Assembly: GCA_018813815.1 (NCBI GenBank)
Contig: JAHJAY010000027.1
Location: 1 to 50,956 of the forward strand
Direction: 5' to 3'
Origin: Patescibacteria group bacterium
Lineage (GTDB): Bacteria; Patescibacteriota; Microgenomatia; UBA1400; JAHJAY01
DNA: 50,956 nucleotides
Part shown: positions 21,074 through 27,505 of the stretch, piece by piece
Layout of the letters: the number at the start of each line of letters is the position of its first letter
Numbering within the stretch: the stretch's first letter is position 1
The notes under the pieces: model-generated
The model's input: the letters and a program-made list of their open reading frames with translations, nothing else
What the model was told of the DNA's origin: nothing
The model's database searches: none
Position numbers and translations under genes: made by a program

Positions 21074-21536
21074 ATGGATGAATCCCAATTAGGTCAAGAT
21101 CCAGAAGACAAAATTGAAAATGGCACGCCTGCGCCGCAGGAGCCTCCAGGGCCTGATCGGGAGCAGGCTGAAGGGGGAGCAAGAACAACCGAGGCCGCCC
21201 AGAAAGGTTTTAGTTGTAGAAGACTCTGAAAATTGGCCTGATACATTGTCCCGTTTTTTTACAAGTGAAGAAATAGAATTTGTGATTGTTGATAGTGTTG
21301 AAGCAGCTGAAGTAGCCTTGGCGGAGGGAGGCTTTACGGAGATTCTTACTGATGGTTTAGAAGGAGATTGGGTAGGCGTTGTAGATATCTCTGGGGATAT
21401 GCCCGTCAGGCTTTTAACAGCTCAATATAAAGATTATAAACCCCTTGCTGATGAAATGGGTATATCGATATTAGATAAATTTACTCTTGATTGGATGGAT
21501 GCTGTGCTTGAAGAACCGCTAGCTCAAACACCTTGA
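21074..21536 (+). pseudogene. Frameshifted receiver-domain (response regulator-like) gene
   Basis: ORF 21114-21536 has KVLVVED...EILTDG...LLTA...DK; removing one G of G5 (21173-21177) joins it to the upstream MDESQ... frame. Confidence 0.6.
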
Positions 21537-21655
21537 TAGTAAAAAAACTTGATCAATAGCCGGAGAACAGGGGAGGGGCAGTCTGGAATAAGTCCCATAA
21601 TAATGGATGGCCTATAGTAAGGTAGGCGAGTTTTCATGAAAATAAACGGCGACTT

Positions 21656-21684
21656 TTCACGAAACCCACATGGTTTGATATAGT
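21656..21684 (+). promoter_or_regulatory. Predicted sigma70 promoter for the structured non-coding region
   Basis: TTCACG (21656-21661), 17 bp, TATAGT (21679-21684) with extended -10 TG; predicted TSS ~21691. Confidence 0.5.
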
Positions 21685-21892
21685 TAAGTCGGTGGGTTTT
21701 CTTCGGGTCTTGTGGAAAACCTAATTGGGCTTAAGGGGAGAGATTTGGGGCTTGAGAAGTTAACCGGCACTATGGCGGCAAAGAGAAGCACAACTTCAGT
21801 CGAATACCTTATTTGATTTTAGTTAAATTGGGTTATTATCCTCCAAAAAGCCAATATCAATGGGGAGTCAGAACAATCTGGCTGTTATGACC

Positions 21893-21920
21893 TTGTCGCA
21901 CAATGATCCTTTTGCGACAA
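21893..21920. other. dif-like tyrosine recombinase site (11-6-11)
   Basis: TTGTCGCACAA-TGATCC-TTTTGCGACAA; arms are inverted repeats with 1 mismatch; CGCAyAA-TG resembles the E. coli dif XerC arm; next to a xer gene. Confidence 0.7.
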
Positions 21921-22237
21921 GGAACTGAAAAGTCAGGAGGAGAGCCAGGTTGTTCAGTTTTTACTTCATTGGTTTAGTATTGGTCCCCAGTTTCAGTTTT
22001 TTAAAAGCTGATTATTTGGCAGTTAAATTCCCCCAATTTGTTAATGAGGAAAAAAATCTCAAAAAACTCAAAATTTAAGCGAAAAGCGCTTTAAGAGGTT
22101 CATTGTTAATATCCGGTGTTTTTTAATTTTTAACATCGGGTGCTACTTATATCTATCGGTTTATTGCCAATCGGCCTTAAAACGCCGCTGGTAAAGCCCC
22201 TTCTCATGTATGTCGTACAATTCTAGTAGAAAAGACC

Positions 22238-22271
22238 AGAAATAAGGAATTAGAAATAAGGAATTAGAAAT
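22238..22271 (+). repeat. Tandem 14-mer (AGAAATAAGGAATT)x2.4
   Basis: Direct reading; sits between structural domains 1 and 2. Confidence 0.85.
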
Positions 22272-22422
22272 TATACTGCCAGCGCTTCTTTGGTTTTATA
22301 AACTAACACTAGTTATAGTGGTTTAACCAGGGTTTTACTCTGTAAATAGTGTTAAAATTAGTTAAGTTGAAAGCTGAAGATTCAGTTGATGGCTTAAGCG
22401 ATGTCTATAAAACAGAGTTTGC

Positions 22423-22462
22423 GTCGCACAATGTTGACAGTTGGTTATTAAAGTGTTAGCAT
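22423..22462 (+). promoter_or_regulatory. Predicted xer promoter with adjacent dif half-site
   Basis: GTCGCACAATG (22423-22433), then TTGACA (22434-22439), 17 bp, TGnTAGCAT (-10 at 22457-22462). Confidence 0.6.
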
Positions 22463-22697
22463 TATGTTTATGCAATCAGTTGATACAGGCTTAATTTTAA
22501 ACCGATTTTTACCCAGGCTATCAGGCCTTTTCTCCGGACAGGGTTTACGGGCTAATAGAAATTATAGGTCTTCTCCCCCACTCTACTATGGGATGCTATT
22601 TCACCCTCTGTTAGCCCCGAGAGTAATAAATCGTGAAAAAAGACTGATATAGCAACCTTTTATTATTTTTTTCATTTTAAGCAAAGGAGGAGATCGA

Positions 22698-23651
22698 GTG
22701 CTAAAGAAAAAGACGAAGAAAAGCCCAGGGTGGCCGATATTAATTAACCAATTTTTAGAACATTTACAGATAGAGCGAGGATGTTCAGTCTTAACGGTTA
22801 GAAACTATCGTCATTACCTTGAACGTTTTTACCGTTTCATTCAGAGAGAAAAACCTCAAATGCGGGTTTCTCAATTGGATCTGGCAATTGTTCGGCGCTT
22901 CCGCCTGTTTTTAGCTGAGTATGTTGACCGCCATGGTTTACCTTTGAAAAGAGTTACACAGGCTTATCATGTAATTGCCTTGCGGTCTTTTTTACGCTGG
23001 CTGGTTAAAAATGATATTAAAACCCTGGCGCCGGAAAAAATTGATGTACCCAAAGGTGAAAGTCAGTCGTTAAAGTTTTTGAGCATTGAACAAGTGGGGC
23101 GTTTATTGTCTCAACCGACATTGAGTAGTTTAAGTGGCTTAAGAGATAAGGCGATTTTAGAAACGCTTTTTTCCACTGGTCTGCGGGTATCTGAGTTGGT
23201 GGGACTCAACCGCGATCGGCTTAATTTTAAAACCAAAGAGGTTGGAGTGATTGGCAAGGGTGGTCGAGCCCGGGTGGTATTTTTAAGCAAGTGGGCGATT
23301 AAATGGCTGCAGCGCTATTTGCAGACTCGCGAGGATAACTGGCGGCCTGTATTTATTCGCTATTCCGGAAAAGTACTGGAAGCTAGTCAGGGTGAAAAAA
23401 TGCGTTTAACTAGCCGGTCGGTTCAACGAATTGTGGAAAAATATGTTAAACAAGCTCGTTTGCCAGTTAAAATTACACCCCATGGACTTCGGCATAGTTT
23501 TGCCACTGATTTGTTGGAGTCAGGCGCTAATCTGCGTGAAATTCAGGAAATGTTAGGGCATAAAAATATTGCCACCACTCAGATTTACACCCATGTGACT
23601 AATCGCCAGTTAAGAAAAGTCCACGAGGAGTTCCACTCTGGCAATCAGTGA
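22698..23651 (+). CDS. XerC/XerD-family tyrosine recombinase
   Basis: SAM-like N-domain; LFSTGLRVSEL, IGKG, HGLRHSFATDLL, LGH, TTQIYTH; AAAGGAGG RBS with GTG start. Confidence 0.96.
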   Translation: MLKKKTKKSPGWPILINQFLEHLQIERGCSVLTVRNYRHYLERFYRFIQREKPQMRVSQLDLAIVRRFRLFLAEYVDRHGLPLKRVTQAYHVIALRSFLRWLVKNDIKTLAPEKIDVPKGESQSLKFLSIEQVGRLLSQPTLSSLSGLRDKAILETLFSTGLRVSELVGLNRDRLNFKTKEVGVIGKGGRARVVFLSKWAIKWLQRYLQTREDNWRPVFIRYSGKVLEASQGEKMRLTSRSVQRIVEKYVKQARLPVKITPHGLRHSFATDLLESGANLREIQEMLGHKNIATTQIYTHVTNRQLRKVHEEFHSGNQ

Positions 23652-24262
23652 AATTGTTTTTCATCTTTAACGGTTGTAGCCGGTCCATGACCTGAATACA
23701 TCAGGGTTTTGGCTGGCAGACTGAGGATTTGTCTGATTGATTGTTGAATTTGGCTTTCATTGCCGCCGTCAAGGTCGGTCCGGCCCCGATCGCCATGAGC
23801 AAAAATAAGGTCGCCGGTAAAAATAAGCTTTTCTGCTGGGCAATAAAAACAAACACTTCCCTGTGTGTGACCCGGAGTATGGATAATTTGCAAGCTTGAC
23901 TCCCCTACCTTGATTTTTGCTTGGGGAACAAGGGAATGATAAACTTTTGGCGCCGGATCAACTTCCAATCCGGTAAAATATTTAGCCGTGCTTTGGGTGC
24001 GGGCCAAAATTTTCTTATCAGCCTGATGAAGATAAAAAGGCAGGTTAAAAGCGAGCTTTAATTCAGTAACAGCCAAAACATGGTCAAAATGGCCATGAGT
24101 TGCCAGAATTGCTTCGGGATTGAGATCTAGGTCTTGGATTTGGGAGATGATTAAGTCAGCATCATCACCCGGATCAATAATGACTGCTTTTCTTGAGGGT
24201 TCTGAGTAAAATAAATAACAATTGGTTTGCAGTTGACCAACAATTAAAGTTTTAACCGGCAT
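23645..24262 (-). CDS. MBL-fold metallo-hydrolase (glyoxalase II-like)
   Basis: TNCY, IDPG, THGHFDH, HTPGHT, FTGD, GHG; start ATG 24262. Confidence 0.92.
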   Translation of the reverse strand: MPVKTLIVGQLQTNCYLFYSEPSRKAVIIDPGDDADLIISQIQDLDLNPEAILATHGHFDHVLAVTELKLAFNLPFYLHQADKKILARTQSTAKYFTGLEVDPAPKVYHSLVPQAKIKVGESSLQIIHTPGHTQGSVCFYCPAEKLIFTGDLIFAHGDRGRTDLDGGNESQIQQSIRQILSLPAKTLMYSGHGPATTVKDEKQFH

Positions 24263-24908
24263 GGTACTTAAAGCCATTAGCCAGCTCGCGCAATTTGGCT
24301 TTGGGATTGTCGGCTTTGACGACAGCTGAAGCCAAAATAACGCCCTGGCCGCCAGCTCTAAGGGTTTTTTTAACATGATCTTGAGTGGAAATCCCTGCAC
24401 CAACAATTAACGGCTGTTTAATTATTTGAGCCAATTGTTTAACACTGGCCTCTTCTTCATCAATCATGCTAATTGTTCCGGCAATTAAATCCGCTCTTTC
24501 ATAAGCAATATAATCCGGTTGCCACAGAGTTACTTGTTTGGCCAGCTTAATTGTTTCGCAAATCACTAAAGTTTTTAGGCCGTATTTTTTAGCCATGTCG
24601 ATTGTTTGTTTTATTGTGTCTTTATCAACCGCATGTTCAGCATGATTAATTACTGCGCCCTCAGCTCCGGCCAGTTTAAGGCTGTAAGGCGAAATCCAGC
24701 CAAAATTGCGGCCCGGATCAATTGGATCAAGGTGTTGAGCCCAAACTTCAATTTTAAGCTCCTGCTTAATTCGGTAAATGTCAGTTGCCTGGGCACAGGG
24801 AATAATCGGCACGCCGGTTTCTTCGCTAACTTGTTTAGCCATGGAAAGTAATTTTATCACTGCTTCACCGCTGGCTTCTTTGTAAGTTTTTAATGATAAA
24901 AAGATCAT
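24252..24908 (-). CDS. tpiA: Triosephosphate isomerase, short archaeal type
   Basis: [33 protein letters not shown]; start likely ATG 24908 overlapping gyrA stop. Confidence 0.88.
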
Positions 24909-27505
24909 TTTATTTTTTTCTTTAAACAAGTGATTGCGGCCACTTGATTGTCTTTTTTGGCAAAGCGCATTAGAATTACTCCCTGAGTTGCCCGGCCAAG
25001 GGTGGGAATGTTTTTTAAAGGCAGTTTGATTATCTGGGCGGCTTTGGAGGTAATCATGATTTGTTCAACTGCTTGAGTGACTAATTTAGCGTCGGCAATT
25101 GAACCGGTTTTCTGGCTTATTTGTGCCACTTTAACGCCTTGGCCGCCGCGTTTTTGCATTGGAAAGCTTTTAATTGGTGTTCGTTTGCCCAAGCCATTTT
25201 CCGTGACGATCAGAATGTCGCGGAAATACTTTTTCCGTTTATCTTTTGGTTTAATTATAGCTTCAGAAAAAGAGATAGCGCTAACCACAAAATCATCAGT
25301 TTTTAAGCGCATGCCTCTAACGCCTTTAGTGCTTCGTCCCATGGACCGGACATTAGCTTCCTTAAAGCGGATGGCTTTACCCTGATGGCTAATCATCATA
25401 ATTTGATCATTGCCTGAAGTTGGCGCTACCCAGATTAATTCATCATTTTTTTCTAAACGGATGGCAATTAAACCATTTGAGCGAATATTGATAAACTGGG
25501 CGGTGAGGGTTTTTTTAACCGTGCCCTTTTTAGTTGCCATAATCAAGTGTTTGGGATGGGCATCGTGAGCTAAGGCTAAAACTGACTGAATGGTTTCGCC
25601 AGGTTCAATATTAATTAAATTGATAATCGCCTGGCCTTTGGCTTGGCGACTGCCCTGAGGCAGATCGTAGACTTTAACTTTAAATACCCGCCCTTGATTG
25701 GTAAAAAATAAAATATCATCATGAGTATTGGCGGCCAAAAGCAGGTTAACTTCATCGGTTTCCTTAGTTGCCATGCCGCTAACGCCTTTGCCGCCGCGTC
25801 TTTGGGAGCGGTAAGTGTTGCGCGGTATACGTTTTATATAGCCGGTTTTAGTAATGGTTACCAAACAGTCTTCAGAGGGCACTAAATCAATTTCACCAAT
25901 TTGTTTTAAACTGCGTTTGTAAATTTTGGTTCGGCGCGCGTCAGCATATTTTTCTTCTAATTGTTTTAATTCGGTTTGGATTACTTTAAGGATTTTGCCT
26001 GGATGAGTTAAGAGGTCTTCTAAATAAACAATCGCTTCTTTGATTAGCTGATATTCGTCTTCAATTTTTTGTCTTTCTAAAGCAGCTAGGCGGCGGAGCT
26101 GCATGTCTAGAATTGCCTGAGCTTGGATTTCAGTTAAAGCAAACTTTTTTATTAAGTTAAGTTTAGCTACCTCAGCATCTTTGGATTTTTTAATGGTATC
26201 AATGACCGCGTCAAGATTATCCAGAGCAATTTTCAAGCCTTCTAAAATATGGAGTCGTTGTTTGGCTTTAATTAATTCAAACTGAGAGCGTCGACAGACC
26301 ACTAGTTGACGATGTTTAACATATTCAACCAGGATTCGTTTAAGGTTTAATAATTGTGGAATACCATCTACCAAAGCTACCATATTGGCCGGAAAACTGG
26401 TTTGCAGTTCAGTGTGTTTATAAAGATTGTTCAGAATTGATTTGGCGCGGGCGTCTTTTTTAAGAAAAATTACTACTTGTAAACCGCGACGGTCTGATTC
26501 GTCTCGCAAATTACGGATGCCCTCAATTTTTTTCTTCTTAACTAAATCGGCAATTTTAATAATTAACCGGGATTTATTGACTTGATAAGGCAGTTCAGTA
26601 ACAACAATTTTCAGGCCGCCTTTTTTAGTTTCCACAATTTCGGCTTTGGCGCGGACAATAATTTTACCTTTACCGTTAGTATAAGCATCACGGATACCCT
26701 CAATGCCCCAAATTTCAGCGCCGGTAGGAAAATCCGGCCCCTGGATAAACTCCATTAACTCTTCAATGCTGACTTCAGAATGAAATTTACCCGCCAGGAC
26801 TTGAGGGGCGATTTTTTCCGGATCAACGATTTTTTCCGGTAATTTTTCATCAGCAACTACCTGACCTTTTTTAATTAAAAAATTAATTGCCTGAATAATT
26901 TCCGTTATATTATGAGGGGGAATTTTAGTTGCCATACCGACTGCAATTCCGTCAGCGCCCATTAACAATAGGTTGGGTAATTTGCCCGGTAAAACTGTTG
27001 GTTCTTGTTGGCTGCCGTCAAAATTATCAATAAATTTAACCGTGTCTTTATCAATGTCAAATAATAATTCATCCGTAATTTTGGCTAGTTTGGCTTCAGT
27101 GTAACGCATAGCCGCCGGACTATCACCGTCAACTGAGCCAAAGTTGCCTTGGCCGTCAATTAACGGATAACGCAAAGAAAACGTTTGAGCCATTCTTACC
27201 AGAGCGGCGTAAACTGCCATGTCTCCGTGAGGGTGGTATTTACCTAAAACCTCACCTACAATCCGGGCTGATTTTTTATATGAACTGGTGTAGCTTAGAC
27301 CGATTTCTTTCATGGCATAAAGAATCCGGCGGTGAACTGGTTTTAAACCGTCACGAATATCGGGTAGGGCGCGGGAAACAATTACGCTCATGGCATAGTC
27401 CAAATAGGATTTTTCCATTTCTTTGACAATTGGGGCGGTTTGGACTAAACCATAAGCGGTTTTTTTAATTGTCACTTCACCATTATCGTTGGTGTCTTTA
27501 TTCAT
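24905..27505 (-). CDS. gyrA: DNA gyrase subunit A
   Basis: [32 protein letters not shown] (catalytic Tyr), GyrA-box QRRGGKG, pinwheel repeats. Confidence 0.98.

What the first reader, a model, noticed from the sequence alone, without database searches (positions are those of the whole stretch)
21691..22655. ~1 kb highly structured non-coding element coupled to a tyrosine recombinase (candidate large ncRNA)
Seen: the only >1 kb gene-poor gap in a tightly packed window, immediately upstream of the Xer-type gene. Domain 1 is a nested rod: GGGGCTT 21747/AAGCCCC 22194; TGGCGGC 21773/GCCGCTG 22184; AAATTGGG 21825/CCCAATTT 22032; CCAATA 21851/TATTGG 21978; TCAATGGGG 21857/CTTCATTGG 21964; GAACAATCTGGCT 21871/AGCCAGGTTGTTC 21943; CCTTGTCGCA 21891/TGCGACAAGG 21913; side hairpin CCGGTGTT 22113/AACATCGG 22132. 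Domain 2: ATAAAC 22298/GTTTAT 22466; CTAACACT 22303/AGTGTTAG 22452; TAACCAG 22324/TTGGTTA 22441; ACTCTGT 22337/ACAGAGT 22412; TTAAGTT 22362/GGCTTAA 22391; AGCTGA/TCAGTT. Domain 3: TATCAG 22519/CTGATA 22644; GGGCTAATAGA 22549/TCTGTTAGCCC 22607. The non-Watson-Crick pairs in these stems are G.T on the + strand, as expected for a folded + strand RNA or ssDNA. A promoter (21656-21684) would start transcription at ~21691, just before a GGTTTTC/GAAAACC hairpin. I recognise no RNase P, tmRNA, SRP, 6S or intron signature. Inference: an undescribed large ncRNA acting with the recombinase as decoy, scaffold, guide or regulatory leader, or a folded ssDNA recombination substrate.
Basis: partly seen in the sequence, partly recalled or inferred. 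Interest (0 to 1): 0.9.

Follow-up and report, generated by a model that had tools for sequence, protein, structure and literature searches.

The report
Chromosome dif site beside its recombinase
The 1 kb gap most likely holds the DNA site where this tiny bacterium's Xer recombinase untangles joined sister chromosomes at the end of replication, and nothing supports a large RNA there, so it is a familiar system found in a little-studied group.

Summary
The gap (21537-22697) and all 16 listed stem pairs exist. The + strand folds better than shuffles (z -4.1; - strand -2.2). The large-ncRNA reading fails the comparative test.

It has two 11-bp inverted arms and a variable 6-bp centre. The supposed stem pair shows no covariation (C-A mismatch in 37 of 86). 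It occurs once per genome in 42 of 61 same-order genomes, always upstream of xer on the same strand.

In four complete relatives, the G-rich word AGGGGAG switches strand within 0.4-2.3 kb brackets that contain the site. The window shows the same switch. This is the pattern of FtsK-guiding KOPS words converging on a dif site at the replication terminus. FtsK with a gamma domain is present.

Lone arm half-sites lie at the xer promoter, which suggests autoregulation. RNAalifold finds no consensus structure, and the flanking hairpins are specific to this lineage.

Verdict: an xer-dif module, a new member of a known kind. An RNA role is unlikely but not excluded, because no RNA data exist.

The parts
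21893..21920 (+). dif-type core site. Left arm 21893-21903 (TTGTCGCACAA), 6-bp centre 21904-21909 (TGATCC), right arm 21910-21920 (TTTTGCGACAA).
   Evidence: Found in 90 of 160 xer loci, all on the xer strand. Arms are invariant and the centre varies. There is no covariation. It is single-copy in 42 of 61 genomes. Polar G-rich words switch strand at it.
21851..21983 (.). It is followed by a T-run at 21957-21961. It is specific to this lineage.
   Evidence: z -6.0 (+) and -4.2 (-). It remains at -4.8 when the two halves are shuffled separately and the core is kept. Among 86 orthologous sites only 9% reach z < -3 on the + strand.
21632..21665 (+). Two TTTTCAYGAA boxes (TTTTCATGAAAA at 21632-21643, TTTTCACGAAA at 21655-21665). 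The second overlaps the -35 of the upstream promoter.
   Evidence: Aligned in L106 and L159. A pair of boxes lies within 450 nt upstream of the site in 20 loci including the window. TTTTCAYRAA gives 34 hits in 24 of 79 loci upstream against 1 hit downstream.
21656..21684 (+). Promoter-like site (TTCACG, 17 nt, TATAGT, with an extended -10 TGATATAGT at 21676-21684).
   Evidence: Found by the scan. TGATATAGT lies within 500 nt upstream of the site in 38 of 79 loci, against 1 downstream.
21711..21719 (+). TGTGGAAAA, an 8-of-9 version of the conserved 9-mer TGTGGATAA. As I recall it (not from a call), that 9-mer is the reverse complement of the canonical DnaA box.
   Evidence: The exact 9-mer occurs once within 500 nt upstream of the site in 38 of 79 loci (44 of 79 allowing W at position 7), and 0 times downstream. 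It is rare elsewhere: 9 in the own genome and 24 in 1.93 Mb sampled.
21570..22578 (.). Convergent G-rich polar words. GGGGAG lies on the + strand at 21570, 21735 and 21862, and on the - strand at 22573 and 23900.
   Evidence: In the window, the 16 GGGGAG sites read ++-+++++++------, with the best switch between 21862 and 22573. GGGGA switches between 21862 and 21984.
22212..22221 (+). Isolated Xer-arm half-site GTCGTACAAT.
   Evidence: It is one of only 7 such 10-mers in the 845-kb genome (8.2 expected by composition). Three of the 7 lie in this gap, all on the + strand.
22238..22271 (.). 14-nt tandem repeat (AGAAATAAGGAATT, 2.4 copies).
   Evidence: Found. It accounts for most of the weak BLAST matches in relatives.
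22423..22462 (+). Xer-arm half-site GTCGCACAAT (22423-22432) abutting the -35 of the proximal xer promoter (TTGACA 22434-22439, 17 nt, TAGCAT 22457-22462).
   Evidence: Promoter scan 10 of 12. Half-sites in + orientation lie within 400 nt upstream of xer in 70 of 141 unique loci (78 on + against 5 on -; control inside xer 0 and 2). 23 of 78 are followed by TTGAY.
22298..22471 (+). Its 3' half carries the half-site and the xer promoter.
   Evidence: z -4.2 (+) and -1.5 (-). Unselected windows give -3.3 and -3.2. No homologue is available to test it.
22698..23651 (+). xer, a Xer-family tyrosine recombinase (317 aa).
   Evidence: PF00589 1.9e-41 and PF02899. The XerC model scores 256 bits and XerD 255 bits, both below the equivalog cut-offs. 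Orthologues of 59-69% identity occur in 160 loci.

Best explanation
The gap is the xer-dif region of the chromosome. The 28-bp site at 21893-21920 is most likely the dif site: two 11-bp inverted arms that bind Xer, and a 6-bp centre where strands are exchanged. It lies at the junction of the two replication arms, about 0.8 kb upstream of the xer gene.

Inferred mechanism: after replication, FtsK (present, with a gamma domain) reads G-rich polar words of the AGGGGAG type. These point towards the site from both sides. FtsK reaches the site and activates Xer to resolve chromosome dimers.

Lone arm half-sites at the xer promoter (22423, abutting the -35, and 22212) probably let Xer repress its own gene. 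This is also inferred.

A conserved promoter with TTTTCAYGAA boxes and a DnaA-box-like 9-mer lies about 180 nt upstream of the site. Its role is unknown.

The long 'stems' come partly from the palindromic site itself. They also come from an extended palindrome and a promoter-spanning hairpin that are specific to this lineage and are not conserved in relatives.
For: Shown:
1. Layout 11+6+11. In 86 unique sequences the arm positions are invariant or nearly so, and variation is concentrated in the four central bases. The same Y degeneracy (C/T) occurs at the equivalent position of both arms with no pairing preference: C-G 35, C-A 37, T-G 10, T-A 4.
2. Copy number. The pattern hits once in 42 of 61 same-order genomes and twice in 1. 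The reversed-pattern control gives 0 of 61.
3. Linkage. All 90 of 90 matches lie upstream of xer on its strand. In 5 of 5 complete genomes the distance is 0.46-6.7 kb.
4. Terminus. An unbiased 7-mer scan of 200 kb round the site in 4 complete genomes picks AGGGGAG: left 74 on + and 4 on -, right 8 on + and 71 on -. The best strand switch brackets the site in 4 of 4 genomes, in brackets of 440, 2279, 895 and 509 bp. Leave-one-out picks the same word each time. The window, which was not used to choose the word, switches between 21862 and 22573.
5. In G032 the word also flips near dnaA. dnaA lies 37-46% of the genome away from the site in 4 of 5 genomes.
6. A GC-skew step of terminus polarity lies 1.1, 30, 28 and 51 kb from the site.
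7. The machinery is present: Xer and FtsK with a gamma domain.
8. Half-sites at the xer promoter.

From the literature: the 11-6-11 dif layout and the xerS-difSL module come from PMC5357621 (passages). G-rich KOPS/SRS words with skew near 1 round dif come from PMC3384302 (passages).
Against: - In G054 the GC-skew sign change lies at about 450-490 kb, while the site is at 741.5 kb, only 20% of the genome from dnaA. The polar word is too rare there (19 sites sampled) to settle it.
- The window's own GC skew follows gene orientation and shows no global switch at the site.
- 18 of 61 relatives lack the strict pattern. About 32 xer loci with a full 4 kb of upstream sequence have no match at 5 or fewer mismatches.
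- The extended palindrome round the site survives a null that keeps the core and the composition of each half (z -4.8). Domain 2 folds much better on the + strand. I have no positive explanation for either.
- A conserved promoter points at the site, so a transcript across it is likely to exist.
- No binding or recombination has been tested.
- The autoregulation and FtsK steps are inference.
Confidence: 0.85

Rival explanations
1. One reading: a large (~1 kb) structured non-coding RNA, transcribed from about 21691, that works with the recombinase as guide, scaffold, decoy or leader.
For: The + strand folds better than shuffles and better than the - strand. The promoter 21656-21684 is conserved in relatives and points into the region. 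In some loci, purine-rich and pyrimidine-rich patches round the site look complementary by eye.
Against: There is no Rfam match in the window or in 16 orthologous loci. RNAalifold gives 0 consensus pairs in 85 loci and 0 compensatory pairs in the 22-locus subgroup. 37 of 86 loci have a C-A mismatch in the only variable pair of the tip hairpin. Flank pairing and local folding in orthologous loci do not differ from shuffles. Domain 3, the leader and the linker are not structured. Genes lie between the site and xer in many loci. Domains 2 and 3 have no detectable homologue anywhere.
Confidence: 0.07
2. The 28-bp palindrome and the half-sites are operators of a transcription factor that regulates xer. 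On this reading they are not a recombination site.
For: Half-sites abut the -35 of the xer promoter. A palindrome with a spacer is also typical of dimeric repressors.
Against: The full site lies 335-3281 nt from xer, and 6.7 kb in G015, often with other genes in between. It sits exactly where polar words switch strand in 4 of 4 genomes, which an operator has no reason to do. The 11+6+11 layout with a variable centre fits a tyrosine-recombinase core site.
Confidence: 0.05
3. Part of the gap, roughly 21921-22420, is the remnant of a small element that integrated at dif by using Xer. On this reading it left the degenerate half-site at 22212 and pushed xer further away. This does not exclude the main explanation.
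For: The window has an extra half-site at 22212 followed by a tandem repeat. In other loci without intervening ORFs the distance from site to xer can be as short as 345-370 nt, against 804 nt here. This part has no homologue.
Against: Half-sites upstream of xer are common in relatives without any sign of an insert. No gene remnant is detectable: 4535 neighbour ORF translations against the gap give only noise. The segment occurs once in the genome.
Confidence: 0.12
4. The site acts as a folded single-stranded DNA hairpin substrate, as attC sites and some phage attachment sites do.
For: In this window the palindrome extends to about 130 nt, with G.T pairs only on the + strand.
Against: The extension is not conserved. 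The stem pair does not covary. A hairpin of this site would present only one arm duplex. The site is single-copy and chromosomal, at the replichore junction.
Confidence: 0.03

Closest known systems
XerC/XerD-dif with FtsK and KOPS (Escherichia coli, Bacillus subtilis CodV/RipX-dif)
   Same: A 28-bp site built as 11-bp arm, 6-bp centre, 11-bp arm with partial dyad symmetry, single-copy, at the replichore junction. G-rich polar words converge on it. FtsK with a gamma domain is present. Two Xer-like recombinases are in the genome (PMC5357621 passages; PMC3384302 passages).
   Different: The two arms are nearly identical, which would suit a single recombinase. The site is genetically linked to xer. 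The second recombinase is only 24% identical and its role is unknown. The polar word is AGGGGAG-like, unlike the published octamers. Nothing has been tested biochemically.
XerS-difSL (streptococci and lactococci) and XerH-difH (Helicobacter, Campylobacter) single-recombinase modules
   Same: The recombination site sits next to the recombinase gene as one module (PMC5357621 passages). The arms are near-palindromic.
   Different: difSL has 31 bp with an 11-bp centre, whereas here there are 28 bp with a 6-bp centre. The protein scores 141.5 bits on the XerS model against a cut-off of 267, so it is not XerS. The distance from site to gene is 0.3-6.7 kb and is not immediate.
XerA-dif of archaea
   Same: A conserved 28-bp site. 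The protein scores 216.3 bits on the XerA model, just under the cut-off of 220.
   Different: XerA is described as acting independently of FtsK (PMC5357621 abstract). Here FtsK with a gamma domain and polar words are present.
Large bacterial ncRNAs in Rfam
   Same: A long gene-free stretch with a better-than-shuffled fold on one strand.
   Different: No Rfam family reaches its threshold. There is no conserved structure or covariation.

Membership tests
dif/Xer chromosome dimer resolution site | About 28-bp core: two ~11-bp inverted arms round a 6-8 bp central region | tested here: met
   In 86 unique sequences the arms are invariant or nearly so, and the four central bases vary. The layout definition comes from PMC5357621.
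dif/Xer chromosome dimer resolution site | One copy per chromosome | tested here: met
   42 of 61 genomes have one hit, 1 has two and 18 have none with the strict pattern. The reversed control gives 0. The own genome has one full site.
dif/Xer chromosome dimer resolution site | Lies at the junction of the replichores (terminus) | tested here: met
   The strand switch of AGGGGAG brackets the site in 4 of 4 complete genomes, and of GGGGAG in the window. A GC-skew step lies 1-51 kb away in 4 genomes. G054 disagrees by GC skew.
dif/Xer chromosome dimer resolution site | A Xer-family tyrosine recombinase is encoded | tested here: met
   PF00589 and PF02899 match. The XerC and XerD models score 256 and 255 bits, below the equivalog cut-offs of 335 and 330. 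The catalytic motifs were read by eye and not tested further.
dif/Xer chromosome dimer resolution site | Xer binds the arms and recombines two sites | not testable with these tools
   Needs EMSA and a resolution assay.
FtsK/KOPS guidance | FtsK with a gamma (KOPS-reading) domain | tested here: met
   PF01580 scores 198 bits and PF09397 100.2 bits in the same 721-aa frame on contig C2.
FtsK/KOPS guidance | Short G-rich words, strongly strand-skewed, pointing to dif from both arms | tested here: met
   Left 74:4 and right 8:71. Agreement with one switch point is 39/40, 42/46, 34/38 and 30/33. Binding by FtsK gamma is untested.
XerS-difSL module | XerS-type protein and a 31-bp site with an 11-bp centre | tested here: not met
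   NF003462 scores 141.5 bits against a cut-off of 267. The centre is 6 bp.
Any Rfam RNA family | Covariance-model score at or above the gathering threshold | tested here: not met
   There are 0 matches in the region at gathering. The best weak match scores 24.1 bits against 50. 16 orthologous loci give 0 matches. RNase P and tmRNA lie on other contigs.
Structured ncRNA (generic) | Conserved secondary structure with compensatory changes | tested here: not met
   RNAalifold gives 0 pairs in 85 loci. In 22 loci it gives 5 pairs with 0 compensatory changes. The MAFFT alignments are poor in the flanks, so a weak structure could be missed.

The most novel reading that the evidence does not exclude
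The conserved promoter (TGATATAGT, with TTTTCAYGAA boxes and a DnaA-box-like 9-mer at its start) makes a non-coding transcript that runs through the dif site. On this reading the RNA copy of the site, a hairpin presenting a Xer arm, binds Xer and tunes dimer resolution or xer expression with the cell cycle.
Probability: 0.07. Interest if true: 0.8.

Novelty: new member of a known kind. Interest (0 to 1): 0.35.

Why it matters
This gives Microgenomates (Patescibacteria/CPR) a concrete dif site, a candidate FtsK-guiding word and a marker for the replication terminus. Three searches of the held library found no paper joining dif and Xer, or KOPS and FtsK, with this group.

The marker is useful because some genomes of this group have a GC skew of one sign all round the chromosome. 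One paper took that as a hint of unidirectional replication (PMC7143001, passages). In G032, which has such a skew, the polar word shows two arms meeting at the site and at dnaA. The question is now testable.

The Xer half-sites at the xer promoter suggest autoregulation of a housekeeping recombinase.

For the scan, the case shows that a palindromic recombination site plus lineage-specific hairpins can look like a large RNA.

Tried and rejected
- Known RNA: Rfam at gathering and at E up to 10 found nothing in the region, and nothing in 16 orthologous loci. RNase P RNA and tmRNA lie elsewhere.
- DNA homology: BLAST of the gap against 60 same-order genomes gave only matches of 51 nt or less, mostly to the 14-nt repeat. 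nhmmer gave 6 marginal hits.
- Decayed gene: 4535 ORF translations from the 160 loci against the gap gave only noise. The 62-aa ORF 22464-22652 has no Pfam family.
- Terminus from the window's own GC skew: it follows gene orientation and shows no global switch.
- My idea that the 'rod' is only mirror-image composition plus the site: rejected. z stays at -3.9 and -4.8 when the halves are shuffled separately.
- A conserved terminator after the site: the 52 nt downstream give median z -0.08, although a T-run starts 24-45 nt after the site in many loci.
- Helix between pyrimidine-rich (about -65) and purine-rich (about +35) patches: seen by eye, not recovered by RNAalifold. I did not test it with a hand-made structural alignment.
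- GGAGAAG as the polar word: it is + biased on both sides and does not flip cleanly.
- DnaA-box cluster (a second origin): the own genome has no cluster of 4 or more boxes within 600 nt.
- Expression: no RNA holder was listed.
- Laying DNA contigs of 4 runs showed the stretch assembled identically in two runs flagged as possible sources. There were no variants in the gap, so it gave no covariation data.
- Supplements of papers were not opened.
- The protein-database searches, structure prediction and complex prediction were not used. The question turned on DNA.
Full report
WHAT IS THERE. The window is contig C7 of an 845-kb, 49-contig genome. By the titles of the related records it belongs to the Microgenomates group of Patescibacteria. 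Between a 140-aa ORF of no known family (21114-21536) and a Xer-type tyrosine recombinase gene (22698-23651; PF00589 1.9e-41, PF02899) lies 1161 nt with no ORF of 63 aa or more. It is the only gap over 1 kb in the window.

IS IT MORE THAN CHANCE.
- The whole region folds at -266 kcal/mol on the + strand, against -236.4 +/- 7.2 for 20 shuffles (z -4.1). The - strand gives z -2.2.
- The signal is local. The 133 nt round the tip hairpin give z -6.0 and -4.2. Domain 2 gives -4.2 and -1.5. Domain 3, the leader and the linker are not significant.
- In an unselected 150-nt scan of 173 windows, 4 of 23 gap windows against 2 of 150 other windows reach z < -3 on the + strand. Coding windows also reach -4.3.

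NOT A KNOWN RNA. No Rfam family matches the region. The best weak match scores 24.1 bits against a threshold of 50. RNase P RNA and tmRNA are on other contigs.

COMPARATIVE TEST.
- The genome has no close relative. 60 genomes of the same order share no DNA with the gap beyond the 14-nt tandem repeat.
- I therefore fetched 160 loci with orthologous xer genes, at 59-69% protein identity.
- BLAST of the gap against them found one recurrent piece, the tip of 'domain 1'. At 5 or fewer mismatches it occurs in 90 of 160 loci. It is always on the xer strand and upstream of xer, at 335-3281 nt.
- In 86 unique sequences, conservation is confined to about 30 nt. Each side has an 11-bp arm that is invariant or nearly so, with the form A-Y-G-T-C-G-Y-A-M-A-A when read outside-in. 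The 6-bp centre varies in its middle four bases: TGATCC here, and TAATAC, TGTATC, TATAAC and others elsewhere.
- The flanks carry no information in the ungapped alignment.
- The only variable 'stem' pair shows C-G 35, C-A 37, T-G 10 and T-A 4. Both arms tolerate C or T independently, as two copies of a protein-binding half-site would. Pairing is not maintained.
- RNAalifold predicts 0 pairs on 85 loci. On a 22-locus subgroup it predicts only the invariant 5-bp core, with 0 compensatory changes.
- In the other loci the flanks do not pair better than shuffles (median z -0.05 in 84 loci). The 133 nt round the site give median z -0.9 and -1.1, and the window is the second most extreme of 86. The 52 nt downstream hold no conserved hairpin.

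A DIF SITE.
- The 11+6+11 layout is that of dif sites (PMC5357621, passages read).
- The strict pattern occurs once in 42 of 61 same-order genomes, twice in one, and not at all in 18. A reversed control occurs in none.
- In five complete genomes it lies 0.46-6.7 kb upstream of xer on the same strand.
- dnaA lies 46, 41, 42 and 37% of the chromosome away in G032, G034, G015 and G002, but only 20% away in G054.
- GC skew steps down, which is the terminus polarity, at 1.1, 30, 28 and 51 kb from the site in G015, G032, G034 and G002. In G054 the sign change is about 250-290 kb away.
- The clearest evidence is oligomer polarity. I took 200 kb round the site in the four genomes and ranked all 7-mers by how strongly they point to the site from both sides. 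AGGGGAG comes first: left 74 on + and 4 on -, right 8 on + and 71 on -.
- I then searched for its best strand-switch point without reference to the site. The switch falls between 90086 and 90526 (site at 90417), 683347 and 685626 (684065), 818310 and 819205 (818859), and 348355 and 348864 (348672).
- Choosing the word from three genomes and testing on the fourth gives the same word and the same brackets each time.
- The window was not used to choose the word. Its 16 GGGGAG sites read ++-+++++++------ with the switch between 21862 and 22573, and GGGGA switches between 21862 and 21984.
- This is the behaviour of KOPS/SRS words, G-rich octamers or heptamers with skew near 1 round dif that guide FtsK (PMC3384302, passages read).
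- The genome encodes FtsK with its gamma domain in one 721-aa frame. It also encodes a second, distant Xer-like protein at 24% identity.
- The window's Xer scores equally on the XerC and XerD models (256 and 255 bits), below both cut-offs.

OTHER CONSERVED DNA IN THE GAP.
(a) Lone arm half-sites. The genome has 7 copies of the 10-mer half-site (8.2 expected). Three of them lie within 530 nt of each other in this gap, all on the + strand, at 21895, 22212 and 22423.
- The one at 22423 abuts the -35 of the best promoter match in the region (TTGACA, 17 nt, TAGCAT).
- Among 141 unique loci with 400 nt upstream of xer, 70 have such a half-site. There are 78 on the + strand against 5 on the - strand. 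The control inside xer gives 0 and 2. 23 of 78 are followed by TTGAY, and most lie within 100 nt of the start.
- I infer that Xer binds its own promoter.
(b) Upstream of the site.
- An extended -10 (TGATATAGT) occurs in 38 of 79 loci.
- The 9-mer TGTGGATAA occurs exactly once in 38 of 79 loci and never downstream.
- Pairs of TTTTCAYGAA boxes also occur, in two different orders.
- As I recall it, the 9-mer is the reverse complement of the canonical DnaA box. It is otherwise rare, 24 in 1.93 Mb.
- Their function is open.

WHAT REMAINS UNEXPLAINED.
- The extended palindrome round the site in this window is real. It gives z -4.8 against a null that keeps the core and each half's composition. It is shared by few other loci.
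- Domain 2 folds markedly better on the + strand and overlaps the xer promoter.
- Both could be RNA-level features of this lineage, local DNA palindromes, or traces of an insertion at dif.
- No close relative and no RNA data exist to decide.

VERDICT. The link to the recombinase is right. The large ncRNA is not supported. The region is an xer-dif module at the replication terminus, a known kind of system newly delineated in this group. In the held library no paper joins dif and Xer with the candidate phyla radiation, or KOPS and FtsK with Patescibacteria (subscription journals are not covered).

Noticed in passing
G032 (L200-L219, L240-L246) and G034 (L220-L239, L247-L253): Two complete same-order genomes have GC skew of one sign all round the chromosome (G032 +0.07 to +0.33; G034 -0.15 to -0.49), whatever the gene strand. 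PMC7143001 reports this for Microgenomates and suggests unidirectional replication. In G032 the polar word AGGGGAG nevertheless shows two arms, switching at the site (90 kb) and between 540 and 585 kb (dnaA at 577 kb).
   Followed up: partly
window 21632-21719; loci such as L106, L159, L029, L053 upstream of the site: A conserved set of DNA boxes lies upstream of the dif-type site: two TTTTCAYGAA boxes, an extended -10 TGATATAGT, and an exact 9-mer TGTGGATAA (DnaA-box-like as I recall it). They occur in two different orders in different lineages. Function unknown.
   Followed up: partly
about 25-45 nt after the site in many loci (e.g. L163, L063, L179); window 21936-21942: A purine-rich box (GGGAGAAGTGG, GGGGAGG or GGAGGAG), often followed by a T-run. 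It is conserved in sequence and lies on the same strand as the site. It is not part of a conserved hairpin.
   Followed up: partly
G054:C1, site at 741511: In this complete genome the site is only 20% of the chromosome from dnaA and about 250-290 kb from the GC-skew sign change. This could be a rearrangement, a misassembly or a real exception.
   Followed up: partly
G029:C16:1870 and C20:100311: This is the one genome with two matches to the site pattern. The second has a different centre.
   Followed up: no
window 22238-22271: A 14-nt tandem repeat (2.4 copies). Similar AT-rich repeats give the only weak DNA matches in other genomes of the order and on own contig C33.
   Followed up: no
window 21114-21536 (+): A 140-aa ORF with no Pfam or NCBIfam family. 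By eye its middle resembles the start of a receiver domain (VLVVEDS). A terminator-like hairpin follows at 21610-21627.
   Followed up: no
window 23645-24929 (-): The metallo-beta-lactamase-fold ORF (23645-24406) and the TIM-barrel ORF (24252-24929) overlap by 155 nt as listed. The upstream start of the first is probably too early.
   Followed up: no
G000:C15:32898-33773 (L280 899-1774, -): The second Xer-like protein (291 aa, 24% identical to the window's Xer) has N where the window's Xer has the first H of its HGLRH motif in the pairwise alignment.
   Followed up: no
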